64,000 bases of DNA from a virus (IMGVR_UViG_3300032053_005312:1-64000), one strand, 5' to 3'. Shown: positions 645 through 24,997, counted from the stretch's first letter. The notes: generated from the sequence alone by a model not told the origin. Numbers and translations: made by a program.

Positions 645-712
645 GGGGTAGCCTACGGGTAGGCGTTGTCACTTGCAATGACGACTAAGGGGTTCGACTC
701 CCCTCTGCTCCA
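645..712 (+). tRNA. Atypical tRNA-Ala(TGC) (no acceptor-D linker, 6-bp anticodon stem)
   Basis: GGGGTAG/CTGCTCC-A with G3:U70; CCT..AGG D stem; TTGTCA-CTTGCAA-TGACGA. Confidence 0.8.
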
Positions 713-720
713 CTGAATAT

Positions 721-791
721 AGGTGTGTGGTGTAGCGGTAGCACGCTGATCTCCAAAATCATCGGTGAGGGTTCGACTCCTTCCACACCTG
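721..791 (+). tRNA. tRNA-Trp(CCA)
   Basis: Anticodon loop CTCCAAA; G73. Confidence 0.9.
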
Positions 792-798
792 CTTAGAT

Positions 799-871
799 TC
801 CCTTGTAGCTCAATTGGTAGAGCGCCAAGCTGTTAACTTGGATGTTCTAGGTTCGAGTCCTAGCGAGGGAG
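799..871 (+). tRNA. tRNA-Asn(GTT)
   Basis: Canonical cloverleaf. Confidence 0.95.
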
Positions 872-916
872 TAGGTTCGAGTCAAAAAATAAGCTCGAAC
901 CTTACTATTATAAGGC

Positions 917-1291
917 ATGGAGGAATCTATGCCTTATAAAGATAAAGAAACACAGTTGAATTCACAATCGAATCATTATCAAAACAACAAAGATCAGTAT
1001 CGTGAGCGAGATCGAAAAAGAAAAGCCACAATACAACTTTGGTTGTTAGAGTATAAAAATGGTTTGGAGTGCATCAAATGTGGAGAAAGTCATCCGGCTG
1101 CATTGACGTTTCATCATCGTGATCCTTCAATGAAAACATTGAACATTTCCACAATGGTCAGTAACCGGGCGACTAAAGAAAAGATACTAGAGGAAATTGA
1201 GAAATGCGATTTGCTTTGTGCAAGCTGTCACTCAAAAGTGCATTTTGCAGAAAGTTCACCGTGGGCCGATATGTTTCCTGTAGTGTGGTAA
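917..1291 (+). CDS. HNH homing endonuclease
   Basis: CIKCG..LTFHH..CDLLCASCH motif. Confidence 0.85.
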   Translation: MEESMPYKDKETQLNSQSNHYQNNKDQYRERDRKRKATIQLWLLEYKNGLECIKCGESHPAALTFHHRDPSMKTLNISTMVSNRATKEKILEEIEKCDLLCASCHSKVHFAESSPWADMFPVVW

Positions 1292-1295
1292 TTAT

Positions 1296-1371
1296 TGCCG
1301 GGTATTCGGTGTTGGTATCCGTTCTCTGCCTTTGAAGCAGAAGGTCGGTGGTTCGATTCCACCCCCGGCAG
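1296..1371 (+). tRNA. tRNA-Gln(TTG), irregular D arm
   Basis: U1-A72, G73; TCTGC-CTTTGAA-GCAGA. Confidence 0.8.
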
Positions 1372-1374
1372 CTA

Positions 1375-1621
1375 GAGAGTGTAGTGTGAATAGCCGCAGA
1401 GGTAAATTCACAAAAGTTGAAGGAAGTGCAAAGCTAAAACTGCAAGTAACAGTTGCAAAAGCTATAAAAACCGTGAGCGGCTGTAAGGGCCGACAGGCTT
1501 GGAGACAATAACTTTGCATGGAGATCAATGAGTAGTGTTTCGAGATAAGCGGTAGGCAGCACAGAGGCTATAGCATTTGCAACCGGAGCCTCCAGTTTAG
1601 GTTCGAGTCCTAACGCTCTCA
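1375..1621 (+). ncRNA. tRNA-framed ~247-nt RNA with ~180-nt structured insertion in the D loop
   Basis: GAGAGTG/CGCTCTC-A acceptor; TTAGG-TTCGAGT-CCTAA T arm; insert closed by ATAGCC/GGCTAT. Confidence 0.65.
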
Positions 1622-1633
1622 TTTGTTAGTTAC

Positions 1634-1706
1634 GGTTCCGTGGTGTAGTGGTACTGCATACCTCCCTGTCACGGAGAAGGTACGAGTTCGATCCTCGTCG
1701 GAACCG
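1634..1706 (+). tRNA. tRNA-Asp(GTC)
   Basis: Loop CTGTCAC; G73. Confidence 0.9.
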
Positions 1707-1708
1707 CT

Positions 1709-1780
1709 GTGATTGAAGCCAAACGGTGCGGCGTCTCTTTGTGAAAGAGATAATAGTGGGTTCGACTCCCATCAATCACC
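1709..1780 (+). tRNA. tRNA-His(GTG)
   Basis: TCTCT-TTGTGAA-AGAGA; C73. Confidence 0.85.
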
Positions 1781-1793
1781 CTGTTAGTTTTAC

Positions 1794-1866
1794 GGGCGTG
1801 GAGTTCGGTTGGTAGAACATTCCCCTGTCACGGGAAAGGCTGCGGGTTCAACTCCCGTCACGCTCG
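1794..1866 (+). tRNA. tRNA-Asp(GTC)
   Basis: TTCCC-CTGTCAC-GGGAA. Confidence 0.9.
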
Positions 1867-1893
1867 CTTTGAAAATTGAACCCGTGCTAAATT

Positions 1894-1964
1894 GTCCTCA
1901 AGGTGTTACGGAAGCATCCGATCTTGGTAAGATCGTGGCGAAGGTTCAACTCCTTCTGGGGACT
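1894..1964 (+). tRNA. tRNA-Thr(GGT)
   Basis: CGATC-TTGGTAA-GATCG. Confidence 0.88.
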
Positions 1965-1966
1965 TA

Positions 1967-2025
1967 TGTTCATCAGGTCCGCTAACTTGGTGAACAGAAA
2001 GGTTGCGGCGAGTTTAGCGGCTCGT
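1967..2025 (+). ncRNA. Kissing-loop hairpin pair
   Basis: Loop CCGCTAA of hairpin 1 is complementary to loop TTAGCGG of hairpin 2. Confidence 0.6.
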
Positions 2026-2029
2026 TTGA

Positions 2030-2103
2030 GGTTGTGTTCGTCTAGTGGTCTAGGATGCCGTCGTTGAAGACGGAGACATGGGTTCAAATCCCATACACAA
2101 TCT
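2030..2103 (+). tRNA. tRNA-like RNA with 6-nt anticodon loop (undetermined)
   Basis: Intact D and T arms; CCGTC-GTTGAA-GACGG. Confidence 0.7.
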
Positions 2104-2119
2104 CGCAACTGAATTTTAT

Positions 2120-2198
2120 GGCCGTGGAAACGAAAGCTCCGTGGTGGGGCATCAGACTGCAAATCTGACGTTAAGAGGTTCGACTCCTCCTGCGGCCT
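2120..2198 (+). tRNA. Atypical tRNA-Cys(GCA), possible 8/4 fold
   Basis: TCAGA-CTGCAAA-TCTGA; U73; GGCCGTGG/CTGCGGCC; long A-rich linker before D stem. Confidence 0.78.
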
Positions 2199-2206
2199 CT
2201 GAATAT

Positions 2207-2276
2207 GGCCCATCCTGCGGATCAGGTGTTGAGTTTACGAAACTTGATTACGAAGGTTCGACTCCTTCATGGGCTA
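2207..2276 (+). tRNA. Atypical tRNA-Arg(ACG)
   Basis: G1:U72; CCT-GCGGATC-AGG D arm; TTGAGT-TTACGAA-ACTTGA. Confidence 0.8.
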
Positions 2277-2280
2277 CTAT

Positions 2281-2351
2281 GGGCGTTTGGTGAAATGGTA
2301 TCACGCTTGGCTTACATCCAATAGTCAGAAGTTCGATTCTTCTAATGCCTA
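2281..2351 (+). tRNA. tRNA-Val(TAC)
   Basis: Loop CTTACAT; cloverleaf. Confidence 0.88.
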
Positions 2352-2404
2352 CTAAAAAGAATTACATTGTGATGAATTTTCGATGCCAGAGCATATAATA
2401 TGTT

Positions 2405-2968
2405 ATGGAAAAAAAATACATCATAATGTCCGGTCAGAAACGTGCAGCGATTGAGTTAACTTGTGAATTTTGTAAAGAGTTATTTTTGACTCGACAAGGT
2501 GGTAAGTTAAAGCGATTTTGTAGTTCTGATTGTTGGAATAAAGCAAAAGTAAATAATGCCCAAGTTGAAGTGACTTGTGCGTTTTGCAGCAAGACTTTCT
2601 TGAAAAAGAAATCTTTGCTCAAAAATTCCAAAAGTGGATTGAGATTTTGCAATGCGACCTGCAAATGCAATGCTCAGAAATTAGGAGGCATAACTGAAAT
2701 TATGCCTTTTCATTATGGCGCAGGAGACGGGAGGTATTCTTGCAGAAACATAATTCAAGAGGGTTCAGAATGCGTTGATTGCAAAGAGAATAGATTGTAT
2801 TACTTGGTTATTCATCATGTCGATGGCGATAGGAGCAATAATGATGTAATCAATTTAGAAATAGTTTGTGCAAAATGCCATACAAAAAGACATTTGAAAA
2901 ATGTTGATGGCAAATGGATTTTTTGCACAAGTGTTTTAACTCCTCGCAATATGTTGAGTTATTTATAA
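2405..2968 (+). CDS. HNH endonuclease with N-terminal Zn-ribbon repeats
   Basis: CxxC..FCS repeats; IHHVDGDRSNN..CAKCH. Confidence 0.85.
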   Translation: MEKKYIIMSGQKRAAIELTCEFCKELFLTRQGGKLKRFCSSDCWNKAKVNNAQVEVTCAFCSKTFLKKKSLLKNSKSGLRFCNATCKCNAQKLGGITEIMPFHYGAGDGRYSCRNIIQEGSECVDCKENRLYYLVIHHVDGDRSNNDVINLEIVCAKCHTKRHLKNVDGKWIFCTSVLTPRNMLSYL

Positions 2969-2969
2969 T

Positions 2970-3041
2970 GGCCCATTCGTCTACTGGCTAGGACCGCTGT
3001 TTTTCAGGCAGCAGAAGACGGATCGAAACCGTCATGGGTCA
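2970..3041 (+). tRNA. tRNA-Glu(TTC)
   Basis: GCTGT-TTTTCAG-GCAGC. Confidence 0.88.
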
Positions 3042-3051
3042 CTTAGTTGTT

Positions 3052-3120
3052 GGATAAATTAGTGTAACGGTAGCACGCTCCCGTGGAGGGAGAAGATTGG
3101 TTCGATTCCAATACTCATTT
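3052..3120 (+). pseudogene. Degenerate tRNA (5-nt anticodon loop, broken acceptor stem)
   Basis: D arm TAGTGTAACGGTAGCAC; CTCCC-GTGGA-GGGAG; T arm ATTGG-TTCGATT-CCAAT. Confidence 0.6.
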
Positions 3121-3122
3121 AT

Positions 3123-3195
3123 GCCGCTTTGAGCAGAGTGGGATTGCGCCTGTCTTGTAAACAGGAATGAGTGAGTTCGATTCTCACAGGCGGCT
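3123..3195 (+). tRNA. tRNA-Thr(TGT)
   Basis: CCTGT-CTTGTAA-ACAGG. Confidence 0.88.
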
Positions 3196-3225
3196 CTGAA
3201 TACTTTAACCTTTTGGAGAAATACT

Positions 3226-3973
3226 ATGGTGTGTCTTTGGCTCGAAACTGTGCGGATTTAGACCAACAGGTAGGTTACACCTGGGGCATTACTTCTCGGT
3301 GATTCAACCGGGACAATCTGGGTGTACTGTACTGGTGGCAAACTATCATGCACCGGAGGTAAAGAATCTGGAAGTATCCGTGAACGCCTTACGGCAATAC
3401 GGTGTCCAGACCATAGTGATTCAGAAGGACGTGTTCGACGCTGAGTTGTTCTTCCGACTATTGACGCTCGCTAAAATGGGCGACTTGAGCCGGATGACAC
3501 AATTCAAGTCAACAGAAGAGGACGATAGGACTGGTCAATTGCTGACTTACCCTGTTCTCATGGCGCATGATGTTGCGGGTTACTCCGAAGTCATTGTGGG
3601 TCTGGACCAGAAGCAGCATTTGGAATATGCCAGAAAGCTGTTGAGAAAATACAACAGCGTATATGGCACGACACATCCGATCCCGATAGCCAATATCGTG
3701 GTGGGACGTGTCAAAGATTTGCGTGACCCGACGAAGAAGATGTCGAAGTCATCACCGCAAGGATGTTTATTCCTTGATGATACGGTTGATGATATTCAAC
3801 AAAAGATTCGGAAGGCGACCGCAGATGAAGAGGGCCTGAATAACTTGAAGTTTTTGTATGGGGAGTTTGTAAGAGAAACGCCTCCAGCAAGCAATCAAGA
3901 ACTGAAAGAGAAGCTGGCCGATAGTTTGGTGAAATGCTTTGCAAGCTGTAGTGGCACAGCATCCGGCTCTTAA
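3226..3973 (+). CDS. trpS: Tryptophanyl-tRNA synthetase (compact); needs +1 frameshift at CTT-TGG-C (3235-3241)
   Basis: GFRPTGRLHLGHY (HIGH) lies upstream of the ORF-track start; YPVLMAHD, GLDQKQH and KMSKS present; the only SD-ATG (GGAG..ATG 3226) is in another frame. Confidence 0.88.
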
Positions 3974-4008
3974 CTGGAAGGTTCAGGGTTCAAGTCCCTG
4001 GCGAAGCA
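3936..4008 (+). tRNA. tRNA-Lys(CTT), overlaps trpS 3' end
   Basis: TCCGG-CTCTTAA-CTGGA; trpS stop lies in the anticodon loop. Confidence 0.82.
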
Positions 4009-4013
4009 CTCAT

Positions 4014-4096
4014 GCAGGTATGGCAGAACGGTTTATGCTCCTGACTCTTAATCAGGGATCGCAAGATCAACGTAGGTTCGACTCCTACTGCCTGCA
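4014..4096 (+). tRNA. tRNA with Lys(CTT) anticodon and class II long variable arm
   Basis: CCTGA-CTCTTAA-TCAGG; variable hairpin GATC-GCAA-GATC; Leu/Tyr-like D arm. Confidence 0.82.
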
Positions 4097-4104
4097 CTAT
4101 TTAC

Positions 4105-4176
4105 GGCGTGTTCGACTTCTGGTGAGGTCATCTGCCTTTCAAGCAGATTAGATGGGATCGAAACCCATACACGTCA
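4105..4176 (+). tRNA. tRNA-Glu(TTC)
   Basis: TCTGC-CTTTCAA-GCAGA. Confidence 0.88.
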
Positions 4177-4177
4177 C

Positions 4178-4301
4178 TTGTTGGTGGAAGAGTTCATATA
4201 CAGTTGCCCAATACTATTTGCCTTCTACGCAAATATAGGGCTACCAGGGACATATGAAGTTCAACTGAAAAACTGGAATATCGGCCACCCGAAACCAACA
4301 A
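4178..4301 (+). ncRNA. Structured ncRNA candidate
   Basis: Closing stem TTGTTGGT/ACCAACAA; nested TTCATAT/ATATGAA and TATTTGC-CTTCTAC-GCAAATA. Confidence 0.5.
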
Positions 4302-4305
4302 AGCA

Positions 4306-4405
4306 GAAAAGAGATCGACAGCAAGGCTCCGTCAGCCAAAAATGATGGCGGCAGTCATGGTAATATAAACCATGACTCGAAATCGTGTATGTCGGCTACC
4401 TTTTC
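4306..4405 (+). ncRNA. Multi-branch structured ncRNA candidate
   Basis: GAAAAG..TCGACA/TGTCGG..CTTTTC closing stems; hairpins CCGTCA/TGATGG and AGTCATGGT/ACCATGACT. Confidence 0.5.
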
Positions 4406-4514
4406 AAACAACGGTTAGAGGGTTTGTACTCGACGCCGTGGATTGCCAATCTTGGGTGGGCGGCATTCCGAAGGCTGGTCTTTGACAATTTGGTAGTTAA
4501 ATTAAGGCCAAGAA

Positions 4515-4649
4515 GTGCCTGTGGTGTAAGTTGGTCGGCAGCATCGTGGAAACACGAAACACTACATTGCACGTTAATCACATTTTCCGGCAAGACCGGC
4601 TCTGTGATTAGCGTATAATGCCAATAGAGGTCGATTCCTCTCAGGCACA
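4515..4649 (+). ncRNA. tRNA-like RNA with long rod replacing the anticodon arm
   Basis: GTGCCTG/CAGGCAC-A; D arm; extra CGTG-GAAA-CACG hairpin; ~18-bp stem CATTGCACGTTAATCACA/TGTGATTAGCGTATAATG; T-like arm. Confidence 0.65.
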
Positions 4650-4678
4650 CTTCCCGGTCCAGAAATGGATCGGATTTT

Positions 4679-4820
4679 GGACTTGTCGTTCGTCTAAAAT
4701 ACGTTTTGACGTATCTCAGGACGCCTGCACCGCCAATGCCGTTCGGCGGTTGATGATGTGATTGGTTGGGTTGGAACTTCTCAAGCCAGGAAGCGCAAGC
4801 TGAACTTGCACGACAAGTCT
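4679..4820 (+). ncRNA. tRNA-Glu-like scaffold with insertions
   Basis: 11-bp GGACTTGTCGT/ACGACAAGTCT; Glu-type D stem CGTCT/GGACG; CCTG/CAGG arm with insert; GCAAG/CTTGC arm. Confidence 0.55.
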
Positions 4821-4826
4821 CTTTAT

Positions 4827-4899
4827 GGTGGTCGTAGTGTAGTGGTCTGCACGACTGATTGTGGATCAGTAAGTGGGAGTTCGATCCTCCTCGATCACC
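4827..4899 (+). tRNA. tRNA-His(GTG) with encoded G-1
   Basis: ACTGA-TTGTGGA-TCAGT; G-1:C73. Confidence 0.9.
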
Positions 4900-5001
4900 C
4901 CTGATATTTTTCAAATCGGCCACTCTTTTAAGTCGGCATTGATCGACTACGAGATTTGGATATACTCATCTCGTCCCAAACTTCACCAGGAAAGAGAAAT
5001 T

Positions 5002-5808
5002 ATGGACTCAAAATACACTGTTGGCCAAAAGGTGCTTTTCGCCAATCAAGACGCTATCATTCGCAAGCTCGAAGAGAGCGACGGAAAATTCAAGTATTAC
5101 TGCGAAGTGGGCGGCGTCCCACTGACCATGTGGATTCCCGAAGATTCTCTGGATGTTGGAAATCCATCCGGCCCGCCGTCAGTATTCTTCAATCGAAGAA
5201 TGCCACACTTGTTGATTGTGGATAACTTCTACAAAGACCCGGATGATGTGCGAGCCTTTGCCCTGGAGCAAGAGTTCAAGCCGAACTTGCGAAACTACAA
5301 GGGCGAAAGAACCGATGAACGATTCCTGTGGCCGTTCCTCAAAGAAGAATTTGAGCGACTATTGGGCCGTCCGATTGTTGACTGGCTGAACCAGCCTTGC
5401 AACGGTTGTTTCCAGATTACTGGCTTCAATGATCCGTTGGTGTGGCACTCCGACTTGCAGAGTTATGCCGCTGCGGTATATTTGACGCCAGATGCCCCGG
5501 TAAGTGCTGGGACTAGCTTCTGGAAAGATACGAATCATGGAAGCCGTCGTCCACCAAATCACCCGCTTGAGTTCGACCGATTTGCTTCAGATGAAGCACG
5601 AGCTTTGGCGGCGAATGAGATTTACAGCGAATACAATATCCTTCACCCGGATAATTGGGAACTGGTTGATAAAGTTGGAGCCGTATATAACCGGCTTGCA
5701 ATTTGGGATGCTCAAATGATCCATTCGGCAAGTTCCTACGAAGGCATGGTAAGTGGCGATGCTGATAAAGCCCGACTTGTCCAATTGTTCTTCTTTACCG
5801 TAAGGTGA
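5002..5808 (+). CDS. 2OG-Fe(II) oxygenase-like (DUF6445-like) protein
   Basis: IVDNFYKDPD, HSD, YNRLAIW..HSA, RLVQLFFF; start moved to ATG 5002 downstream of the tRNA. Confidence 0.7.
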   Translation: MDSKYTVGQKVLFANQDAIIRKLEESDGKFKYYCEVGGVPLTMWIPEDSLDVGNPSGPPSVFFNRRMPHLLIVDNFYKDPDDVRAFALEQEFKPNLRNYKGERTDERFLWPFLKEEFERLLGRPIVDWLNQPCNGCFQITGFNDPLVWHSDLQSYAAAVYLTPDAPVSAGTSFWKDTNHGSRRPPNHPLEFDRFASDEARALAANEIYSEYNILHPDNWELVDKVGAVYNRLAIWDAQMIHSASSYEGMVSGDADKARLVQLFFFTVR

Positions 5809-5813
5809 ACAAA

Positions 5814-6095
5814 ATGTCTTTCCGGTTGAGCAAAAAAGTCTCTCTCGAAGAGGGCGACAAAATACGAGTTTCAGGTGGTCCATACTTTCTCGCTCAATCT
5901 GGAAAAAAGATCAGCATGGGCGAGCATGGAGTTGGAACATTTGCTGGAGCAGAAGAAAACGGAGAAGCGATATACGTTAAGTTTGATCGCATGTCTGCTC
6001 CAAGATTCGTCTATATTGGGCCGGAGCGTTTGTCAGAATCAACTGGTACAACGCTCCGGCCCCATAAGATTGTCAAGCTGCGAAAGAAGGTGTGA
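5814..6095 (+). CDS. Hypothetical protein
   Basis: ORF in operon-like arrangement. Confidence 0.55.
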   Translation: MSFRLSKKVSLEEGDKIRVSGGPYFLAQSGKKISMGEHGVGTFAGAEENGEAIYVKFDRMSAPRFVYIGPERLSESTGTTLRPHKIVKLRKKV

Positions 6096-9611: not shown

Positions 9612-9680
9612 TGCTATGGTGCTGGGACACAGTTGCCCCTCATAAGGGCGACATGGTGGGTTCGATTCCCACCTTAGCAA
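9612..9680 (+). tRNA. Atypical tRNA(CAT) (Met or Ile2)
   Basis: GTG-CTGGGA-CAC D arm with no linker; TTGCCC-CTCATAA-GGGCGA. Confidence 0.75.
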
Positions 9681-17382: not shown

Positions 17383-17603
17383 CCATGCTAGTTACGACTA
17401 TTGAAGCGGTCTTCAATCCACAACTATGGCAAGAGTTGTGGCGTGAAGTCATGAAGGACGAAGTGCCGGGTTCAAAAGCCTACCTCAAGGCTGAATACTA
17501 TATGGGGCAAGCAATTGCTTTATATGGAGCCGAAACGCTCATTAAGGAACACAATGAGCGAGAAAAGATTTTCGATAAGCCTTTTGAACTTCTTGGTAAA
17601 TAG
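17379..17603 (+). CDS. Hypothetical protein
   Basis: GTGA overlap with the upstream gene. Confidence 0.5.
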   Translation: MTMLVTTIEAVFNPQLWQELWREVMKDEVPGSKAYLKAEYYMGQAIALYGAETLIKEHNEREKIFDKPFELLGK

Positions 17604-17612
17604 ATAAGATAT

Positions 17613-17683
17613 GTCTCGGCCTGCGGATCAGGCGTTGGGCCTCCGAAGCCCGAATGAAAAAGGTTCAACTCCTTTCCGGGATA
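17613..17683 (+). tRNA. Atypical tRNA-Arg(CCG)
   Basis: G1:U72; CCT-GCGGATC-AGG; TTGGGC-CTCCGAA-GCCCGA. Confidence 0.8.
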
Positions 17684-17688
17684 CTTTT

Positions 17689-17756
17689 GCCCCAGCCGTC
17701 GAACGGTGCCAGCACTTCTAAGGCAGGCTTAGTAGGTTTAACTCCTACCTGGGGTA
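17689..17756 (+). tRNA. Atypical tRNA-Arg(TCT), weak anticodon stem
   Basis: G1:U72; CCG-TCGAA-CGG; loop CTTCTAA. Confidence 0.65.
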
Positions 17757-17778
17757 CTTGGTTGACCCATTTTAAGAA

Positions 17779-17851
17779 GCGGAATGCGCATAATGGCTGT
17801 TGCCCCTGATTTCCAATCAGGTCTGAATGGGTTCGATTCCCATATTCCGCA
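17779..17851 (+). tRNA. tRNA-Gly(TCC)
   Basis: CCTGA-TTTCCAA-TCAGG; A73. Confidence 0.8.
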
Positions 17852-17855
17852 CTAT

Positions 17856-17927
17856 GCGGGTGTAACTCAATGGTAGAGTACCTGCCTTCCAAGCAGGTTG
17901 TTGTGGGTTCGAGTCCCATCGCCCGCT
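17856..17927 (+). tRNA. tRNA-Gly(TCC)
   Basis: Canonical. Confidence 0.93.
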
Positions 17928-17932
17928 CTTAG

Positions 17933-18616
17933 CTAGTTGTCCAAAAACTCCGGCACGTCAACCGTGTGCGGCACCGGACTGAAAGAATCTCTCCAATGGA
18001 CAGAATCTTCTAGTCCTTTGTCACGCAAAGCGTTAGCCAATTCAATTTCTGTTTTGGTTCTGGATGTTTCTGTTCTCCAAATAACTGCTGAGTAGTCGCC
18101 ACTCCCATTGGAATTACGAAGGATCATGTCTGGAATTTGGCTTGGGCTGACTTTAATCTCGCCAAATTTTGTTTTCACAAAACAATCATGATCTCTTATG
18201 ATGATTTTGGTTGGAGTTCCGAGTTCCGATGTCATATTGTTCTGGTTGGTGCCTATAATGGAATTCGCTCCACCAAGAACTGCGTTGACACCAAGTCCTG
18301 TTCCAATTGTTCTTGCCATATATGGGAACAAACTTCCCCAAGGGATTCCAGACCCTAACAATAAACCAATGGCCGCAGCACCGAGAGCGCCATACTTCAA
18401 CATTGTTTTGTTTTTGTCCCACCATTTTCTGGCCCAAGATTTTTCTTTTGGAGGAACTGTTGGGACTTGGATGCTTTTAGGCATTGGAGGGACTTGTGTG
18501 GCGACTTGGCGATTCACAACTTTGTCATCTAAAGCGTTTTGCTCTGCTTCCACCAAGCATCTGATTCCAATTTCTATATTGCGTCTATTTGTAAACTCTT
18601 TGAATGATGTGTTCAT
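17933..18616 (-). CDS. Hypothetical membrane protein
   Basis: 227-aa ORF with Gly-rich TM segment. Confidence 0.55.
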   Translation of the reverse strand: MNTSFKEFTNRRNIEIGIRCLVEAEQNALDDKVVNRQVATQVPPMPKSIQVPTVPPKEKSWARKWWDKNKTMLKYGALGAAAIGLLLGSGIPWGSLFPYMARTIGTGLGVNAVLGGANSIIGTNQNNMTSELGTPTKIIIRDHDCFVKTKFGEIKVSPSQIPDMILRNSNGSGDYSAVIWRTETSRTKTEIELANALRDKGLEDSVHWRDSFSPVPHTVDVPEFLDN

Positions 18617-19086: not shown

Positions 19087-19092
19087 GTAAAT

Positions 19093-19164: not shown

Positions 19165-19215
19165 CTTTTTGACAAGCCTGAATTTGTGACCTATGCTTCA
19201 AGCAGGAGGCCACAA

Positions 19216-20242: not shown

Positions 20243-20282
20243 TCCTTGTTGCTATATCTAGTTATGAAAGTGGGGACGATAA

Positions 20283-20675
20283 ATGGTAATCGTTGGAAGA
20301 ATATCCTTGGTCGATCACCCTACGGCTGTTCACCTACAAGTTGGCACGATTCAGGGCAAAACCGTTGTCGTGGGTCGCCACTATGACGAAGGCACCTTTG
20401 GATTTTTCATTCCAAATGGGGCGATTGTGCCGGACAAGCTGGCTGACGAGATGTGGGTGAAGGGCAAATTGTCCGGCAAAAACAAGGATCGAGTCAAAGC
20501 CAGGGAGATGCACGGCGTTTTTTCCGAAGGACTGTTTTACGGCAGTCGGTACTTTGTGGTAGAATTTGGTGAAAAGGTCTACATCGACAGCCCACGCTGG
20601 AACCCTGCCTGGGTTGAGGGTCAAGATGTGGCGAACGAAGTGGGGGTTCTTGAAAGTGGCCCGCCATCAACTTAA
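20283..20675 (+). CDS. tRNA-binding OB-fold protein (like RNA-ligase N-domain)
   Basis: HPTAVHL..VVVG..RVKAREMHGVFSEGL..EGQDV. Confidence 0.65.
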   Translation: MVIVGRISLVDHPTAVHLQVGTIQGKTVVVGRHYDEGTFGFFIPNGAIVPDKLADEMWVKGKLSGKNKDRVKAREMHGVFSEGLFYGSRYFVVEFGEKVYIDSPRWNPAWVEGQDVANEVGVLESGPPST

Positions 20676-20718
20676 AATACTGAGTCAGTAGTTCATACAT
20701 AAGGAGTATCGCTTCAAT

Positions 20719-21057
20719 ATGAGTGAAACAATAACGCTCCCGGAGCCAAAAGAGAAAGTCGATAACAAGACTGATAACAAGACTAAGCGTCAACCACCAT
20801 ATAACGTCATTCTGATGAATGACGACGATCACACGGTCGAATATGTTGTGACGTTGTGCCAAAAAATCTTTGGCTTCCCAATAGAAAAGGGTCTGTTGAA
20901 AGCTAAAGAGGTCCACGAAAAGGGTCGGTCTATTTTGTGGACTGGCGCTCTCGAATTGGCCGAGTTGAAGCAAGAACAAATTCACGCTGTTGGTAAAGAC
21001 CCGCAGATTAACCGCTGCAAGGGTAGTATGACTGCGGTATTGGAACCGGCAGCGTAA
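20719..21057 (+). CDS. clpS: ATP-dependent Clp protease adaptor ClpS
   Basis: PPYNVILMNDDDHTVEYVV..EVHEKGRS. Confidence 0.92.
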   Translation: MSETITLPEPKEKVDNKTDNKTKRQPPYNVILMNDDDHTVEYVVTLCQKIFGFPIEKGLLKAKEVHEKGRSILWTGALELAELKQEQIHAVGKDPQINRCKGSMTAVLEPAA

Positions 21058-21067
21058 CAGGAGAACA

Positions 21068-21532
21068 ATGAGAGGAATATTGGTTTCGCTGGCCGTCGTA
21101 TTCGGTTTTATAATCGTGGTCGCCCTCGTGCATCAAAAGCCAAGCGAGCCACAGCAGATTGCTGTTATATCAACAGAATCACCCCTTCCCGCTCCCACCC
21201 AGGTTGAGCCTCAAGCAAAAATAGATAATCCTCCGGCAAGCATGAAGATGCCGGAACCAATGGTAATCACGTCATATAAAGATGTGAATCGCATTCCAGA
21301 TGCAGGTCTTCGCACCTTCGTTCGCCGCAAGGCAGATTTTCGTCACGATAATGTTCTCTTCTTTGAGTGGAAGGGTATTTCTGGCGACAAGATGATTGGT
21401 GAGGTTAAAGACAAAAAATACACGATCACTTTACATCCTGCATATACTGTCATGTTTGGACAAGAAGTTGTGCATCGGCAGATATTTGTGATTCCAGCTT
21501 CGTATCCTTACGTTTGCGAAGTCGCCAAGTGA
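21068..21532 (+). CDS. Hypothetical membrane-anchored protein
   Basis: RBS GGAG; N-terminal TM segment. Confidence 0.55.
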   Translation: MRGILVSLAVVFGFIIVVALVHQKPSEPQQIAVISTESPLPAPTQVEPQAKIDNPPASMKMPEPMVITSYKDVNRIPDAGLRTFVRRKADFRHDNVLFFEWKGISGDKMIGEVKDKKYTITLHPAYTVMFGQEVVHRQIFVIPASYPYVCEVAK

Positions 21533-21554
21533 GTGCATGTCTATACTGTAGATC

Positions 21555-21788
21555 ATGAACCTTTGGCTTAAACTCGCCGTCGCAAGAAGGATTGCAGCGG
21601 AACTACAAATCAAGTATTGTGGCGTTCCTTACGGCGATGACTCCGAGCCTATCGAAGACGAGATGATTGAACATCTCTGGAGTCATCCAGAATTCGATGA
21701 AGATATGTGGCTCAACGTCCATTGGGACGATTTTGAGTGCGTCTGCTGGGTCCAGGTTGGAGTCGGCCTTGAACTCGTTCCGAGATAA
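21555..21788 (+). CDS. Hypothetical protein
   Basis: ORF in gene array. Confidence 0.5.
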   Translation: MNLWLKLAVARRIAAELQIKYCGVPYGDDSEPIEDEMIEHLWSHPEFDEDMWLNVHWDDFECVCWVQVGVGLELVPR

Positions 21789-21790
21789 AC

Positions 21791-22051
21791 ATGGCAAGAA
21801 TCAGTAAAATCATTTGGATTAAAGATGATGACGGGACGATTTCTTTGGACACAATTCCTGGCATGACTCGCCAGGATATATTCCAAGCATCCCTTATCAT
21901 AACTGACAAAGGCCGCATTCTGAAAAATCGTCTCGGCCCGGACAATCAGATAATTCCATCGTTCGATCTCGTGAAGCAAGCTGTCAAGCCGCCCAAGAAA
22001 TCCAAATATCGTTCGATATACGATTCAATGGATATGAATGCCGATCTATGA
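21791..22051 (+). CDS. Hypothetical protein with KYRSIYD C-terminal motif
   Basis: ORF in gene array. Confidence 0.55.
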   Translation: MARISKIIWIKDDDGTISLDTIPGMTRQDIFQASLIITDKGRILKNRLGPDNQIIPSFDLVKQAVKPPKKSKYRSIYDSMDMNADL

Positions 22052-22299
22052 GCGATTCAATTTGGCTGGAAGCATCAGTTAAATTCCTCAAGACTTCATG
22101 GGAAGAAGTCCAAGACGGCGATGTGGTATATTACCAAATCATTCGGCGTCATCACGACAACAATGCCCACGGGCCATTTATCGTTGTCGATAAAACCCGT
22201 GGCAGATTGCGGAATGGAAATGGGGTTGAACTGAATTTCAATTCTGATAATCTGCAACTGTTGAAGTTCGACCTTGTGTCCATATTGATGGGCGATTAG
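22048..22299 (+). CDS. Hypothetical protein
   Basis: ATGA overlap. Confidence 0.5.
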   Translation: MSDSIWLEASVKFLKTSWEEVQDGDVVYYQIIRRHHDNNAHGPFIVVDKTRGRLRNGNGVELNFNSDNLQLLKFDLVSILMGD

Positions 22300-22362
22300 C
22301 TCAGTTGGTTAGATCGCCTGCTTTACACGCAGGAAGTCGGGGTTCGAGTCCCTCATCGCCTA
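22290..22362 (+). tRNA. tRNA-Val(TAC)
   Basis: CCTGC-TTTACAC-GCAGG. Confidence 0.92.
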
Positions 22363-22368
22363 CTCGAA

Positions 22369-22397
22369 TTTACAAGTCATCAATTTCGTGGTATAGT
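22369..22397 (+). promoter_or_regulatory. Promoter TTTACA-N17-TATAGT
   Basis: Repeated promoter family. Confidence 0.6.
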
Positions 22398-22406
22398 TCC
22401 ATCACT

Positions 22407-22868
22407 ATGGCACAGAAACTTTTTATTCCGAATCTCGGAACGCTGATGATTTTGGCTGAAGATTGGACTTTCAAGCTCTATTTTGAGCGAAGAAATGACA
22501 CCATGATTCAGGCGTTCGGCGGCAAGAAAAGTCGTTGGTGGTGGGGCGATAAGCTCAGTGCCGATGATTTCGAGGATGGAAAAATTCCTCCTATTGAATA
22601 CGAGAAGGCCATGTCCGAAAAAGAGTTAGGCGAAGCCTACCAATCCTTCCGGGCCACCAATGCTGAAGACAAGCCGTTTATTCGAGTCACCCTGCTGAAA
22701 GGCACTCAACTCAAGGTTGACCGAATCTATATTCGCCGAGGCAGGGAATCATTCAGTTCTGTGACATTTCGTACAACCAAAATTTGTCCTGAAAAGCGCT
22801 TTGCAAGCAAGCGATTTTGGGCTAAACTTCGTGAGGCAAATGAGATCGTTGCCGATGTTATTGGGTAG
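22407..22868 (+). CDS. Conserved jumbo-phage hypothetical protein
   Basis: LAEDWTFKLYFERRN..LKVDRIYIR..RFWAKL. Confidence 0.7.
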   Translation: MAQKLFIPNLGTLMILAEDWTFKLYFERRNDTMIQAFGGKKSRWWWGDKLSADDFEDGKIPPIEYEKAMSEKELGEAYQSFRATNAEDKPFIRVTLLKGTQLKVDRIYIRRGRESFSSVTFRTTKICPEKRFASKRFWAKLREANEIVADVIG

Positions 22869-22869
22869 T

Positions 22870-23040
22870 TCGCCCAAGCTATAAGCAACATTCCAAATTG
22901 GAGACGGGAGATTTGGTTATGCGACTAAAATCTCCAGAACGTGTCGATGAAATGGTGCGATTGCTCCTACAATATAAGCAGGAGGTTTGGCCGAAACCGA
23001 CAACGGATGGTCAACATAGGCACTCAAGCCTCAACTGATA
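22870..23040 (+). ncRNA. Structured intergenic RNA candidate
   Basis: Hairpins GGAGATTT/AAATCTCC, CTCCT/AGGAG, TGTCG/CGACA. Confidence 0.4.
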
Positions 23041-23041
23041 T

Positions 23042-23112
23042 TGCCCGATGGTGTAATGGTAGCACAATTGACTTTGACTCAATTAGACCAAGTTCGAGTC
23101 TTGGTTGGGCAA
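23042..23112 (+). tRNA. tRNA-Gln(TTG)
   Basis: ATTGA-CTTTGAC-TCAAT. Confidence 0.92.
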
Positions 23113-23114
23113 CT

Positions 23115-23279
23115 ATGGCAAGATCACTACAAAAAGATCAAAGCATCACTCAAAAAAATGATGCCAGCAGCATTGGGAACAAGCGTCGGAAGGCTCGGAA
23201 GGCCAAGACGAATTCCAATAAACGTGACCGTCAATTTCTAAACAAAGACCTAAAGGAACAGATCATGAGCTTGTGCTAA
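23115..23279 (+). CDS. Small basic protein upstream of frr
   Basis: MARSLQK..KRRKARKAK; stop 22 nt before the frr ATG. Confidence 0.5.
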   Translation: MARSLQKDQSITQKNDASSIGNKRRKARKAKTNSNKRDRQFLNKDLKEQIMSLC

Positions 23280-23301
23280 CTTAAACGAAGCCCGGTCCTC
23301 G

Positions 23302-23772
23302 ATGGACAAGGCATTTGAATTTTTCCGTGACCAAATGCGAGGCATCAGGCATGGAGAAATCTCCACTGGCCTCATCGACACAATCCGGGTGGAAGCATAC
23401 GAGCAGCGATTGCCGCTCAAGCAACTGGCCTGGACAGCACCAGATAAAAATAACCGAATCCTAGTGTCACCGTATGACACAGCTTTATTGGGAGCGATTG
23501 ATCGTGCCATTAGAGCAGAAGGGTTCAACTCCTATGTTTTCTCCAAAACCCAGGTGGTAGTCAATTGTCCGGTTCGTAGTGGCGAAGATACAGAACGGGT
23601 GATCCAACAGATCAATAAGCTGGCCGAAGAAGCCAGAGTTGTGATTAGGAATATCCGAAAGAAGATTCGCCAAAAAGCCGAAGAGGATATAGACAAGCCG
23701 CTTCAAAAGTTGACGGATGAAAAGATCAAAGAAATCAATGATCTCGTTGACTATAAGGTGAAGTGCTTATGA
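23302..23772 (+). CDS. frr: Ribosome recycling factor (compact)
   Basis: IRHG..LIDTIRVEAY..PLKQLA..PYD..EEARVVIRNIRK..LQKLTD. Confidence 0.88.
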   Translation: MDKAFEFFRDQMRGIRHGEISTGLIDTIRVEAYEQRLPLKQLAWTAPDKNNRILVSPYDTALLGAIDRAIRAEGFNSYVFSKTQVVVNCPVRSGEDTERVIQQINKLAEEARVVIRNIRKKIRQKAEEDIDKPLQKLTDEKIKEINDLVDYKVKCL

Positions 23773-24200
23773 CGCATCCGAATATGATCCCGGTCAGTTG
23801 TTCCAACATAGATGAGATGCGTCTGCTGGCACAACAGATGCGTGCTTTGTGTCTCGTGGACCCCGATAAAGTCGAAGGATATACGGCCTCGACTACTAAG
23901 GAAGAATGCGACAAGCGTTCTTTGGATGTTCAGGCAGACATAATCGCAAGTGGTCATTTGCGATTCATTCACTATCCACCAGATGGTCGTATTGTGAATG
24001 TTGTTTACACGCTATTGGAACCTGAGAGTGGCGAAAAGGAATGGAACCTTTCCATGAGCCATGCCACTCTTGCTGGGCCGAGGCGAGTTGAAGACGATCT
24101 TGCCAAGATGATTTGCGAAGCGTTCTTGGATGACTTCTACCAAGAAGTTGATCCCAAGGCGTATTGGAAAAACGTGAGGCATTTCGTCAAGGCTGCATGA
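23769..24200 (+). CDS. Hypothetical protein
   Basis: ATGA overlap. Confidence 0.55.
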   Translation: MTHPNMIPVSCSNIDEMRLLAQQMRALCLVDPDKVEGYTASTTKEECDKRSLDVQADIIASGHLRFIHYPPDGRIVNVVYTLLEPESGEKEWNLSMSHATLAGPRRVEDDLAKMICEAFLDDFYQEVDPKAYWKNVRHFVKAA

Positions 24201-24203
24201 AAA

Positions 24204-24518
24204 CATGATGGTTGGTTTTGGTTTGCGTCAATATTATTTATGTTGACTGCTAAACCAGGGATAGGAACCGATGATAAACTCTGTAGTGTAAGCAACACGC
24301 CATTCAATGGTCCTCGTGCCGTAATTGGATGGAAATGCTTGGTAAATCCAATAGGCCACCAGTTTGCTGGGTTCTATGGGCTAGTCCGAGAGAGAGCGAG
24401 TCAAAGGGTGGTATTCCCTGTACGCAAATTGACAACGCCTACGGGATTAACGACCGGGGCCGATAGTCTAGCAGTCCTTCGGCAGTGGGTTTGACCCCCA
24501 CAGGGACCAACCATCATG
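24204..24518 (+). ncRNA. ~315-nt large structured ncRNA with T-arm-like 3' hairpin
   Basis: 13-bp terminal helix CATGATGGTTGGT/ACCAACCATCATG; GTGGG-TTTGACC-CCCAC. Confidence 0.6.
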
Positions 24519-24536
24519 CCTTTTAGAAAGCAGAAC

Positions 24537-24644
24537 ATGAAGTTCGCCATACTGATCCTTGTGGTGTCGATTTCAGGATGTGTCACACTCGATCCACACA
24601 AGATGCCTCCGCTGCATCTTGTGGCAAAACAGAAGGCTAAATGA
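24537..24644 (+). CDS. 35-aa putative lipoprotein
   Basis: MKFAILILVVSISGC lipobox; below ORF-track cutoff. Confidence 0.5.
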   Translation: MKFAILILVVSISGCVTLDPHKMPPLHLVAKQKAK

Positions 24645-24666
24645 ACATTTATAAACCTATTCGTGA

Positions 24667-24908
24667 TGGTCCAGACAGAAAGAAATTTCTCGTTTGGAAC
24701 TACTTGGAGAATCTAATGCCAACAATCTCATTGAGATTAGCTTGGATGCCCCCTGGCCACCGGAAAACCGAGATCAGGGTCAATGATTTGAGTGGTTCTT
24801 GGCACTGGCAGGCTGTCAGGAGTGGGGATTCTGTCATAGAATAGCCGAACTAAGGTTCGCTCAAAGGGAGCGGACACGAATAAGGCGAATAAAGGCAGAG
24901 CGGGACCA
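24667..24908 (+). ncRNA. ~240-nt structured ncRNA candidate
   Basis: TGGTCC/GGACCA closing stem; several internal hairpins. Confidence 0.4.
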
Positions 24909-24927
24909 CAGATTATCTGCTAACTTT

Positions 24928-24997
24928 GTTCCGTCCGTTGGATTGCGGCGTCGAGTTTCCTAAACTTGATAAATTGGTTCGATTCCAATACGGAATA
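24928..24997 (+). tRNA. Atypical tRNA-Arg(CCT)
   Basis: G1:U72; CCG-TTGGATTG-CGG; TCGAGT-TTCCTAA-ACTTGA. Confidence 0.8.

What the first reader, a model, noticed from the sequence alone, without database searches (positions are those of the whole stretch)
645..24997. Family of six non-canonical tRNAs (all four Arg, one Ala, one CAT) sharing one alternative fold
Seen at 645, 2207, 9612, 17613, 17689 and 24928: the D stem (3 bp) starts immediately after the acceptor strand with no U8/R9, and a short linker precedes a 6-bp anticodon stem (poorly paired in the 17689 copy). The four Arg isoacceptors (ACG, CCG, TCT, CCT) all have G1:U72 and A73, and two share the identical D arm CCTGCGGATCAGG. No canonical tRNA-Arg is present in the window. 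Established: tRNA-Pyl and mitochondrial tRNA-Ser(UCN) use short-linker/6-bp folds. Inference: these may be a nuclease-resistant or semi-orthogonal tRNA set, possibly paired with the phage's N-terminally truncated ArgRS (43638-44930). Similar tRNAs may already exist, unannotated, in tRNA arrays.
Basis: partly seen in the sequence, partly recalled or inferred. Interest (0 to 1): 0.75.

Follow-up and report, generated by a model that had tools for sequence, protein, structure and literature searches.

The report
Compact-core phage tRNAs (Arg, Ala, Met)
Six tRNA genes of this huge phage share a shrunken, rewired tRNA core that standard tRNA finders miss; the design recurs, mainly in arginine tRNAs, in many phages that have no arginyl-tRNA synthetase of their own, and I found no paper describing it.

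Summary
At 645, 2207, 9612, 17613, 17689 and 24928 lie 68-71 nt tRNA genes with one layout. A 7-bp acceptor stem runs straight into a 3-4 bp D stem, with no nucleotides 8/9. Then come a 2-nt linker, a 6-bp anticodon stem, a 3-5 nt variable loop and a normal T arm. Rfam's tRNA model reports none of them; ARAGORN calls four, with strained folds.

Orthologues in a 340-kb relative keep the fold through compensatory changes. Across 91 members from about 50 records, 98% of cells pair and 21 of 22 pairs covary.

Each copy carries the bacterial identity set of its amino acid. The Arg copies have GGA in the D loop, C35, G/U36 and A73. The Ala copy has G3:U70. The CAT copy has the methionine acceptor set.

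They are most likely working tRNAs of a widespread phage class. The class also occurs in cultured roseophages (with encoded CCA), a Ralstonia jumbo phage and cyanobacterial tRNA arrays.

The proposed pairing with the short ArgRS is not supported for the fold. None of 38 records that carry the fold has that enzyme, and one complete phage with the enzyme has only canonical tRNA-Arg. G1:U72/A73 does track the enzyme.

The 17689 copy may be degenerate. This scan noted the same class earlier on other DNA (e1-5377857).

The parts
645..712 (+). Compact-core tRNA-Ala(UGC): GGGGTAG|CCTA CGGG TAGG|CG|TTGTCA CTTGCAA TGACGA|CTA|AGGGG TTCGACT CCCCT|CTGCTCC|A
   Evidence: Parse. Model R1 gives 72.1 bits. 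It carries G2-C71, G3.U70, G4-C69 and A73, and a G after the D-loop GG. The G001 orthologue has compensatory changes in the anticodon stem, including the sixth pair. A canonical tRNA-Ala(UGC) lies 90 nt upstream at 483-553.
2207..2276 (+). Compact-core tRNA-Arg(ACG): GGCCCAT|CCTG CGGAT CAGG|TG|TTGAGT TTACGAA ACTTGA|TTAC|GAAGG TTCGACT CCTTC|ATGGGCT|A
   Evidence: 84.6 bits. No Rfam tRNA match. G1:U72 and A73; D loop with GGA.
9612..9680 (+). Compact-core tRNA with anticodon CAU, most likely elongator Met: TGCTATG|GTG CTGGGA CAC|AG|TTGCCC CTCATAA GGGCGA|CATG|GTGGG TTCGATT CCCAC|CTTAGCA|A
   Evidence: 41.5 bits with a model that was not trained on it. Its acceptor stem has G2-C71, C3-G70, U4-A69, A5-U68 and A73, which is the bacterial Met identity set in Table 1 of PMC9976931. 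There is a U.U mismatch at 6:67. No orthologue was found.
17613..17683 (+). Compact-core tRNA-Arg(CCG): GTCTCGG|CCTG CGGAT CAGG|CG|TTGGGC CTCCGAA GCCCGA|ATGAA|AAAGG TTCAACT CCTTT|CCGGGAT|A
   Evidence: Missed by both ARAGORN and Rfam. R1 gives 85.2 bits. The G001 orthologue is near-identical, with a 2-nt shorter variable loop.
17689..17756 (+). Compact-layout tRNA-Arg(UCU), degenerate: GCCCCAG|CCGT CGA ACGG|TG|CCAGCA CTTCTAA GGCAGG|CTTA|GTAGG TTTAACT CCTAC|CTGGGGT|A
   Evidence: Missed by both finders. There are two mismatches in the anticodon stem. The D loop has no GG and the T loop has no C56, so both partners of the G19-C56 elbow pair are lost together. The gene at the same position in G001 is a well-formed compact tRNA-Arg(UCU) with a different D arm. 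This copy may be decaying.
24928..24997 (+). Compact-core tRNA-Arg(CCU): GTTCCGT|CCGT TGGATT GCGG|CG|TCGAGT TTCCTAA ACTTGA|TAA|ATTGG TTCGATT CCAAT|ACGGAAT|A
   Evidence: 73.7 bits. The G001 orthologue changes acceptor pairs 2:71 and 3:70 on both sides and keeps G1:U72.
43614..44930 (+). Short arginyl-tRNA synthetase, 438 aa (the profile match starts at 43638)
   Evidence: Pfam tRNA-synt_1d at 2e-9 and a weak DALR match. It has an HVGH motif and a KMKSR motif. The AlphaFold model (pLDDT 87.7) aligns to E. coli ArgRS 5b63_A with Z 27.6 over 390 residues. At least 295 homologues of 385-475 aa lie on contigs of up to 693 kb. It is context for the finding, not a demonstrated partner of the fold.
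38410..40056 (+). Methionyl-tRNA synthetase, 548 aa; possible charger of the 9612 tRNA
   Evidence: Pfam tRNA-synt_1g at 3.5e-84. The link to the 9612 tRNA is inference only.

Best explanation
The six genes are real tRNA genes of a 'compact-core' class.

Compared with the cloverleaf:
- Nucleotides 8 and 9 are missing, so the D hairpin starts at position 8.
- Position 26 pairs with 44 as a sixth Watson-Crick anticodon-stem pair.
- Two unpaired nucleotides sit between the D stem and that pair. In effect the two-nucleotide connector has moved from the 5' side to the 3' side of a shortened D hairpin.
- The T arm, the D-loop GG that docks on the T loop, the 7-nt anticodon loop and a 3-5 nt variable loop are kept. 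The molecule should therefore still form an L shape (inferred, not shown).

How they most likely work:
- They are transcribed with the rest of the + strand tRNA array and processed.
- CCA is added afterwards, because it is not encoded in this window.
- They are charged through the ordinary identity elements that each copy retains.
- They then read CGN/AGR (the four Arg anticodons cover all six codons), GCN and AUG.

The fold does not depend on the phage's short ArgRS, because most phages with the fold must use the host enzyme.

Why the core is compact is not shown. My best guess is a rigid core, rich in base pairs, that folds without host modifications such as s4U8. Such a core may also escape factors that read the canonical core.

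The class probably spread among arginine isoacceptors by duplication and anticodon change. In this huge-phage lineage it was also taken up for Ala, Met and Gln.
For: Structure:
- Hand parse and ARAGORN drawings.
- The minimum-free-energy fold recovers the compact cloverleaf in 5 of 6.
- Ten-sequence alignment: 98.6% of cells paired, 16 of 22 pairs changed on both sides.
- Ninety-one-sequence alignment: 98% paired, 21 of 22 pairs covary. The sixth anticodon-stem pair is CG35 / GC24 / UA21 / AU5, and all four D-stem pairs covary.
- 89 of 91 have zero nucleotides between acceptor and D stem, and the linker is 2 nt in all 91.

Function:
- Identity sets are retained: GGA in the D loop of 79 of 91, C35, G/U36 and A73 for Arg; G3.U70 with neighbours and a G after GG for Ala; G2-C71, C3-G70, U4-A69, A5-U68 and A73 for the CAT copy (identity rules from PMC9976931).
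- The compact Arg genes of cultured roseophages have an encoded CCA.
- G19 and C56 are lost together in the 17689 copy.

Independence from ArgRS.

Breadth:
- 52 IMG/VR stretches match the pattern.
- Seven cultured phages carry it.
- It also lies in cyanobacterial tRNA arrays.

Standard tools miss them.
Against: - There are no expression, charging or structural data. The RNA runs cover only a neighbouring canonical tRNA-Gly that comes from other organisms.
- The 91-sequence alignment was fitted to the model, and its loci were found with an arginine-specific pattern. The Arg predominance and part of the pairing percentage are therefore inflated.
- The 9612 copy has no orthologue, and its D region allows a second register (3-nt connector, CTG/CAG stem).
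- The 17689 copy looks degenerate.
- Equating the A after GG with A20 is an inference in a 4-6 nt loop.
- The reason for the compact core is a guess.
Confidence: 0.8

Rival explanations
1. One reading: the compact fold makes a private, semi-orthogonal tRNA-Arg set that is charged preferentially by the phage's short ArgRS, much as the 0-nt connector of M. alvus tRNAPyl is an identity element for its N-domain-less PylRS.
For: - The ArgRS is short, with a reduced N-terminal domain.
- Precedent: the absence of base 8 is an identity element for the M. alvus PylRS, which lacks its N-terminal domain (PMC10810272).
- G1:U72 occurs in 8 of 11 compact tRNA-Arg of phages that encode this ArgRS, against 6 of 77 elsewhere.
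- Four of the six members in this window are Arg, and no canonical Arg lies in the window.
Against: - None of 38 records that carry the fold has the enzyme, 12 of them at least 90% complete (with the control).
- G002 has the enzyme but only canonical-layout tRNA-Arg. G010 and G013, which encode only distant ArgRS relatives (about 30% identity over part of the protein), also have only canonical-layout tRNA-Arg. G001 and G003 mix both layouts.
- The A after G18G19 is kept.
- The fold is also used for Ala, Met and Gln.
- The G1:U72 signal is on the acceptor end, is shared by canonical-fold Arg tRNAs of the same phages, and is not corrected for relatedness.
Confidence: 0.12
2. Shape-based escape: the compact core lets phage tRNAs survive a host defence, a competitor's toxin or a phage-made nuclease that destroys or inactivates canonical tRNA-Arg (and Ala or Met) by reading the core or elbow. 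The phage thereby keeps a complete replacement set.
For: - The four Arg anticodons cover all six codons, which looks like replacement rather than supplementation.
- The same anticodon is kept in both folds side by side: Ala-UGC at 483 and 645 here, and Arg-ACG at 1670 and 1753 of L088 in DSS3_MAL1.
- RNA-repair and translation genes lie nearby: RlaP, PTH2 and several aaRS-like genes.
- Phage tRNAs are known to counter tRNA-targeting defences (PMC11555353, listed; abstract only).
- Cyanobacterial long tRNA arrays, which also carry a compact Arg gene, are reported to respond to translational stress (PMC8421152).
Against: - The anticodon stem-loop, which is the usual target of anticodon nucleases, is ordinary.
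- No nuclease was found in the window.
- No experiment bears on it.
- This reading adds to the best explanation and does not exclude it.
Confidence: 0.2
3. They are tRNA-derived relics or non-translational tRNA-like RNAs (decoys, processing signals), not adaptors.
For: - The 17689 copy is degenerate.
- The 9612 copy is a singleton.
- The window holds several other odd tRNA-like elements.
- Rfam does not recognise them.
Against: - Covariation in every helix across about 50 records.
- Intact 7-nt anticodon loops with U33 and a purine at 37.
- Complete identity sets.
- Encoded CCA in roseophages.
- Near-complete Arg isoacceptor sets recur in tandem.
Confidence: 0.06

Closest known systems
tRNAPyl of Candidatus Methanomethylophilus alvus (the class whose PylRS lacks the N-terminal domain)
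   Same: No nucleotide between acceptor and D stem, a 6-bp anticodon stem, a very small D loop and a short variable loop. It still works on the ribosome as an L-shaped tRNA (PMC7609411; PMC10810272).
   Different: - The phage tRNAs keep G18G19 and a T(Psi)C-type T loop.
- They have no bulged base in the anticodon stem.
- Their variable loops are 3-5 nt, not strictly 3.
- They have sense anticodons (Arg, Ala, Met, Gln) with the identity sets of those amino acids.
- They occur in phages and mobile tRNA arrays, not in archaea.
- I could not check whether the connector between D stem and anticodon stem in M. alvus tRNAPyl is also 2 nt.
Mammalian mitochondrial tRNASer(UCN) (type I mt-tRNA)
   Same: A 6-bp anticodon stem, a shortened connector, a small D loop and a short variable loop, with the G18G19 / T(Psi)C elbow kept (PMC7609411).
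   Different: It has one nucleotide, not zero, between acceptor and D stem. It is a single mitochondrial isoacceptor for serine, charged by a dedicated mitochondrial SerRS.
Canonical bacterial and phage tRNA-Arg (Rfam RF00005 cloverleaf)
   Same: Acceptor stem, T arm, anticodon loop, C35, G/U36, an A after G18G19 and the discriminator. Canonical versions with the same anticodons exist in relatives (G001, G002, DSS3_MAL1).
   Different: The compact genes have no nucleotides 8/9, a Watson-Crick 26:44 pair, a 2-nt linker after the D stem and a D loop of 4-7 nt. They score below every threshold of the Rfam tRNA model.
Allo-tRNAs and selC-like tRNAs (8/4 and 9/3 acceptor/T layouts; Mukai et al., PMC5389517)
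   Same: Natural non-canonical tRNAs found in metagenomes, some of them in phages.
   Different: Those change the split between acceptor and T stem and have long variable arms. Here the 7/5 split is canonical and the change lies in the D/anticodon core.

Membership tests
Canonical class I tRNA cloverleaf (Rfam RF00005) | Reaches the Rfam gathering score (29 bits) | tested here: not met
   None of the six is reported as tRNA, even at E<=10 with permissive filters.
Canonical class I tRNA cloverleaf (Rfam RF00005) | Two unpaired nucleotides (8, 9) between acceptor and D stem, and a 5-bp anticodon stem with unpaired position 26 | tested here: not met
   All six have a 0-nt connector, a 2-nt linker after the D stem and a 6-bp anticodon stem. 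The same holds for 89 of 91 and 91 of 91 family members. The sixth pair covaries.
Canonical class I tRNA cloverleaf (Rfam RF00005) | 7-bp acceptor stem, 5-bp T stem with a T(Psi)C-type 7-nt loop, a 7-nt anticodon loop with U33, and GG in the D loop | tested here: met
   Met in five of six. The 17689 copy lacks GG and C56.
tRNAPyl | 6-bp anticodon stem, 0-1 nt between acceptor and D stem, small D loop | tested here: met
   compared with the descriptions in PMC7609411.
tRNAPyl | CUA anticodon, G73 with G1:C72, 3-nt variable loop, no G18G19 or T(Psi)C | tested here: not met
   The anticodons are sense anticodons. All six have A73, and four have G1:U72. Variable loops are 3-5 nt. GG and TTCRA are present. 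These are therefore not tRNAPyl; the resemblance is architectural only.
Bacterial tRNA-Arg identity set (A20, C35, G/U36, A/G73; PMC9976931) | All four determinants present | tested here: met
   C35, G36 or U36, and A73 are present in all four Arg copies. GGA is in the D loop of 2207, 17613 and 24928; the 17689 copy has CGA. Equating this A with A20 is inferred. Charging was not tested.
Bacterial tRNA-Ala identity set (G3.U70, G2-C71, G4-C69, A73, G20) | All determinants present in the 645 copy | tested here: met
   The acceptor strands GGGGTAG / CTGCTCC give G2-C71, G3.U70 and G4-C69. The discriminator is A73, and the D loop CGGG has a G after GG. The compact Ala genes of G001 and G003 show the same.
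Bacterial elongator tRNA-Met identity set (CAU, A73, G2-C71, C3-G70, U4-A69, A5-U68) | All determinants present in the 9612 copy; C4-G69, the Ile-type determinant, is absent | tested here: met
   The acceptor strands TGCTATG / CTTAGCA give exactly these pairs. Lysidine modification, which would give Ile identity, cannot be excluded from sequence alone.
Arginyl-tRNA synthetase (class Ia) | Rossmann catalytic domain with HIGH and KMSK-type motifs, plus a DALR anticodon-binding domain | tested here: met
   Pfam tRNA-synt_1d at 2e-9 and DALR at 0.0019. HVGH and KMKSR motifs align to solved ArgRS structures. Z 27.6 to 5b63_A.
Arginyl-tRNA synthetase (class Ia) | Full N-terminal domain (Pfam Arg_tRNA_synt_N) that binds the D loop and A20 | tested here: inconclusive
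   There is no Pfam match at E<=0.01. About 50 fewer residues precede the HIGH motif than in solved ArgRS. A small beta domain (residues about 10-46) remains and falls within the span aligned to E. coli ArgRS from residue 21 on. Whether an A20 pocket is kept is unknown.

The most novel reading that the evidence does not exclude
Phages keep a second, structurally distinct tRNA architecture, the compact core: 0-nt connector, 2-nt linker, 6-bp anticodon stem. It would serve as a shape-based way to keep arginine decoding (and here alanine and methionine decoding) running when canonical tRNAs are destroyed, inactivated or left unmodified during infection. In the huge phages that encode a short ArgRS, a G1:U72/A73 acceptor signature would add a private charging channel. 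This would be a natural non-standard tRNA scaffold for canonical amino acids, in use in bacterial cells.
Probability: 0.2. Interest if true: 0.85.

Novelty: new variant of a known kind. Interest (0 to 1): 0.7.

Why it matters
[quoted passage not shown] These genes suggest that phages which infect bacteria, and mobile tRNA arrays in cyanobacteria, routinely use a different core for ordinary amino acids.

Practical consequences:
- Rfam-type models miss them and ARAGORN misses some. In GenBank they are often unannotated or overlapped by 'hypothetical protein' calls. Phage tRNA repertoires are therefore under-counted, for arginine above all.
- Cultured roseophage-host pairs make the class testable at once for expression, charging, modification and structure.
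- A natural tRNAPyl-like scaffold that carries Arg, Ala and Met identity bears on tRNA engineering, and on how far aaRS, EF-Tu, RNase P and the ribosome tolerate changes in the core.
- The G1:U72/A73 signature that goes with phage ArgRS gives a concrete, testable hypothesis for why huge phages carry their own synthetases.

Tried and rejected
- The exact D-arm pattern CCTGCGGATCAGGNGTTG in IMG/VR gave 20 hits. Nineteen lie in unrelated DNA that does not parse as a tRNA, and only the 340-kb relative was a true match.
- The wider pattern in prokaryote genomes was dominated by canonical haloarchaeal tRNA-Arg(CCU) that happen to fit it. My descriptor separates them: 45 canonical, 15 compact, 22 neither.
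- No orthologue of the compact CAT tRNA was found by pattern in IMG/VR or by BLAST in four relatives.
- Expression: the only RNA runs that share words with 17400-18000 cover just the canonical tRNA-Gly at 17856-17927, from other organisms. This is no evidence either way.
- The ORF upstream of the ArgRS (43204-43641) as a split-off N-terminal domain: it has no Pfam match. It is conserved only in the closest relative and does not sit next to the ArgRS in G002, G003 or G005. Rejected.
- A seventh anticodon-stem pair between the linker and the variable loop: inspected by eye across members, with no consistent pairing.
- Literature searches for this layout in phages returned nothing relevant. The library lacks many subscription journals, so 'undescribed' is provisional.
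- The genome search scored only 150 of 254 (G002) and 150 of 198 (G005) first-look candidates. I therefore rechecked all tRNA-Arg of those records with a pattern search.

Full report
WHAT IS THERE

The window is the first 64 kb of a 78.6-kb virus record. CheckV estimates the record at about 16% of a genome. The only GenBank phage matches are weak: about 370 bases at 66% identity to a 595-kb uncultured phage, and 142 bases to a Rhizobium phage.

The first 27 kb hold a + strand tRNA array. ARAGORN tRNAs and Rfam.

They share one layout:
- a 7-bp acceptor stem;
- a D stem that begins at position 8, 4 bp in five copies and 3 bp at 9612;
- a D loop of 3-6 nt;
- a 2-nt linker;
- a 6-bp anticodon stem with a 7-nt loop;
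- a variable loop of 3-5 nt;
- a normal 5-7-5 T arm;
- A73.

The anticodons are UGC (Ala), ACG, CCG, UCU and CCU (Arg), and CAU.

ARAGORN calls four of them with strained drawings and misses 17613 and 17689. With permissive filters and E<=10, Rfam's tRNA model reports none.

IS THE FOLD REAL

- A covariance model built without the 9612 copy ranks all six above every canonical tRNA of the window.
- Unconstrained minimum-free-energy folding gives the compact cloverleaf for five of six.
- A 340-kb IMG/VR contig (G001) encodes an ArgRS that is 86% identical. It has orthologues of five of the six.
- Those orthologues carry compensatory changes. In the Ala copy the anticodon stem TTGTCA/TGACGA becomes CTGTGC/GCACGG, which includes the sixth, outermost pair. 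In the CCU copy two acceptor pairs change on both sides.
- On these ten sequences 98.6% of cells pair and 16 of 22 pairs change on both sides. Controls with the 3' partner slid sideways pair at most 53%.
- The 17689 copy has lost both the D-loop GG and C56 of the T loop. That is what one expects if the two pair in the elbow.

HOW WIDE IS THE CLASS

- More distant huge phages that encode the same ArgRS family carry compact Arg(CCU), Arg(UCU), Arg(GCG), Ala(UGC) and Gln(CUG) genes.
- A spacing-specific pattern found 52 stretches on about 48 IMG/VR contigs of 7-524 kb.
- My descriptor found 87 distinct compact genes in the loci fetched, often as tandem sets of three or four Arg isoacceptors.
- Cultured phages carry them too: the roseophages DSS3_MAL1, MD18, DSS3P8, vB_RpoS-V10, RcXuper and RpAliso, and the Ralstonia jumbo phage RsoM2USA.
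- The roseophage genes I parsed (in DSS3_MAL1, MD18 and DSS3P8) are followed by an encoded CCA. In five of the seven cultured records the gene is unannotated or overlapped by a hypothetical-protein call; only DSS3_MAL1 annotates it as tRNA-Arg.
- In prokaryote genomes the same pattern mostly hits canonical haloarchaeal tRNA-Arg, which serves as a control for the descriptor. It also hits 15 compact genes. Among them is a tRNA-Arg(ACG) inside the long tRNA arrays of filamentous cyanobacteria, and tandem sets on Myxococcota MAG contigs.
- A model-based alignment of 91 members gives 98% pairing, and 21 of 22 pairs covary. The sixth anticodon-stem pair is CG35 / GC24 / UA21 / AU5. The acceptor/D connector is 0 nt in 89 of 91 and the linker is 2 nt in all 91.
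- Two caveats apply. The alignment was fitted to the model, and the loci were seeded with an arginine-specific pattern.

ARE THEY ADAPTORS

Each copy keeps the bacterial identity set of its amino acid, as tabulated in PMC9976931:
- The Arg copies have C35, G/U36 and A73, and an A directly after G18G19.
- The Ala copy has G2-C71, G3.U70, G4-C69 and A73, and a G at that same D-loop position. The A-to-G switch matches the A20 (Arg) versus G20 (Ala) rule.
- The CAU copy has G2-C71, C3-G70, U4-A69, A5-U68 and A73, which is the methionine set. It does not have the isoleucine-type C4-G69.

Together with the covariation and the encoded CCA in roseophages, this makes working tRNAs the best reading. The four Arg anticodons would cover all six Arg codons.

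THE ArgRS LINK

The ORF at 43614-44930 is a genuine ArgRS, but a short one.
- It has HVGH and KMKSR motifs, and its model aligns to E. coli ArgRS with Z 27.6.
- It has about 50 fewer residues before the HIGH motif and about 80 fewer within the catalytic domain.
- A small N-terminal beta domain remains, so the N-terminal domain is reduced rather than absent.
- The family has at least 295 members, mostly on very large contigs.

The compact fold does not track this enzyme.
- None of 38 fold-carrying records has it, 12 of them at least 90% complete. The positive control scored 5 of 5.
- G002 is complete and has the enzyme, but it has five canonical-layout tRNA-Arg.
- G010 and G013, which encode only distant ArgRS relatives, also have only canonical tRNA-Arg. 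G001 and G003 mix both layouts.

What does track the enzyme is G1:U72 with A73.
- It occurs in 8 of 11 compact Arg tRNAs of ArgRS-encoding phages, against 6 of 77 (G:U at 1:72) elsewhere. Fisher's test gives 6e-6, not corrected for relatedness.
- Most canonical-fold Arg tRNAs of G002 and G010 have it too.

This is a lead, not a result.

COMPARISON WITH WHAT IS KNOWN

- The nearest described architecture is tRNAPyl of Ca. M. alvus: no base between acceptor and D stem, a 6-bp anticodon stem and a tiny D loop. Next nearest is mitochondrial tRNASer(UCN) (PMC7609411, PMC10810272).
- The phage class differs from both. It keeps the G18G19 / T(Psi)C elbow, uses sense anticodons with standard identity sets, and occurs in phages and mobile tRNA arrays.
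- I found no paper that describes it.
I confirmed independently that the class recurs in uncultured phages. I did not check its Mx1 example.

New in this window are the Ala and Met members, the setting with a short ArgRS, and the evidence against a fold-ArgRS pairing.

VERDICT

The fold family and the comparison are right, the ArgRS pairing of the fold is not, and nuclease resistance is untested.
- The class is a new variant of a known kind, the non-canonical tRNAs. It is widespread, and it can be tested in cultured systems.

Noticed in passing
window 25509-25611: A 103-nt tRNA (Rfam 41.1 bits) with a normal acceptor stem, D arm and T arm, but about 32 extra nucleotides in the anticodon region. 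ARAGORN in intron mode calls it tRNA-Phe(AAA) with a 32-nt intron. Such a short insert is odd for a bacterial virus.
   Followed up: partly
window 26889-26986: A 98-nt tRNA (Rfam 50.4 bits) with G1:U72 and A73. ARAGORN in intron mode reads anticodon TAT with a 5-nt insert and an extra arm. Its identity is unclear: it could read AUA, or it could be something else.
   Followed up: partly
window 2120-2197: A tRNA-Cys(GCA)-like gene with good acceptor, anticodon and T arms but a 24-nt region where the D arm should be. ARAGORN misses it, and Rfam gives a partial 26-bit match.
   Followed up: partly
window 40241-40316: A tRNA-like element with an alanine-type acceptor stem (G3.U70, A73) and a normal T arm, but a body that does not parse as a cloverleaf. 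Further T-arm-bearing oddities lie at 1520-1620, 3057-3120, 24473-24509 and 30237-30300.
   Followed up: no
window 3299-3973, 27284-28192, 41456-41932, 46006-46686, 47122-48048: A cluster of cut-down translation genes: a 224-aa Trp/TyrRS-like fragment, a 302-aa GluRS/GlnRS catalytic domain with no anticodon-binding domain, a PTH2 peptidyl-tRNA hydrolase, a 226-aa release-factor fragment (PCRF + RF-1), and an RlaP-type RNA-repair nucleotidyltransferase.
   Followed up: partly
window, the two bases after the discriminator of the 34 tRNA genes listed: In 31 of these 34 tRNA genes, canonical and compact alike, the discriminator is followed by CT and not by CCA. This may be a shared 3'-processing signal.
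   Followed up: no
L181 7184-7253, L197 3550-3621, L216 and L237 (filamentous cyanobacteria): The long tRNA arrays of Laspinema, Oscillatoria and relatives contain a compact-core tRNA-Arg(ACG) between tRNA-Ser(CGA) and tRNA-Asn. ARAGORN misses it in three of the four loci. The paper on these arrays (PMC8421152) does not mention unusual folds.
   Followed up: partly
tRNA-Arg genes of G000, G001, G002, G003, G005 and G010: G1:U72 with A73 marks most arginine tRNAs, compact or canonical, of huge phages that encode the short ArgRS, and it is rare elsewhere. It could be an acceptor-end recognition signature for that enzyme.
   Followed up: partly
window 917-1291, 2405-2968, 42552-43160, 59590-60297: HNH endonuclease ORFs are scattered through the tRNA array and the aaRS region. 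They are probably homing endonucleases.
   Followed up: no
L088 1670-1746 and 1753-1822 (Bacteriophage DSS3_MAL1): A canonical and a compact tRNA-Arg with the same ACG anticodon sit 6 nt apart, both with encoded CCA. This mirrors the canonical and compact tRNA-Ala(UGC) pair at 483 and 645 of the window.
   Followed up: partly
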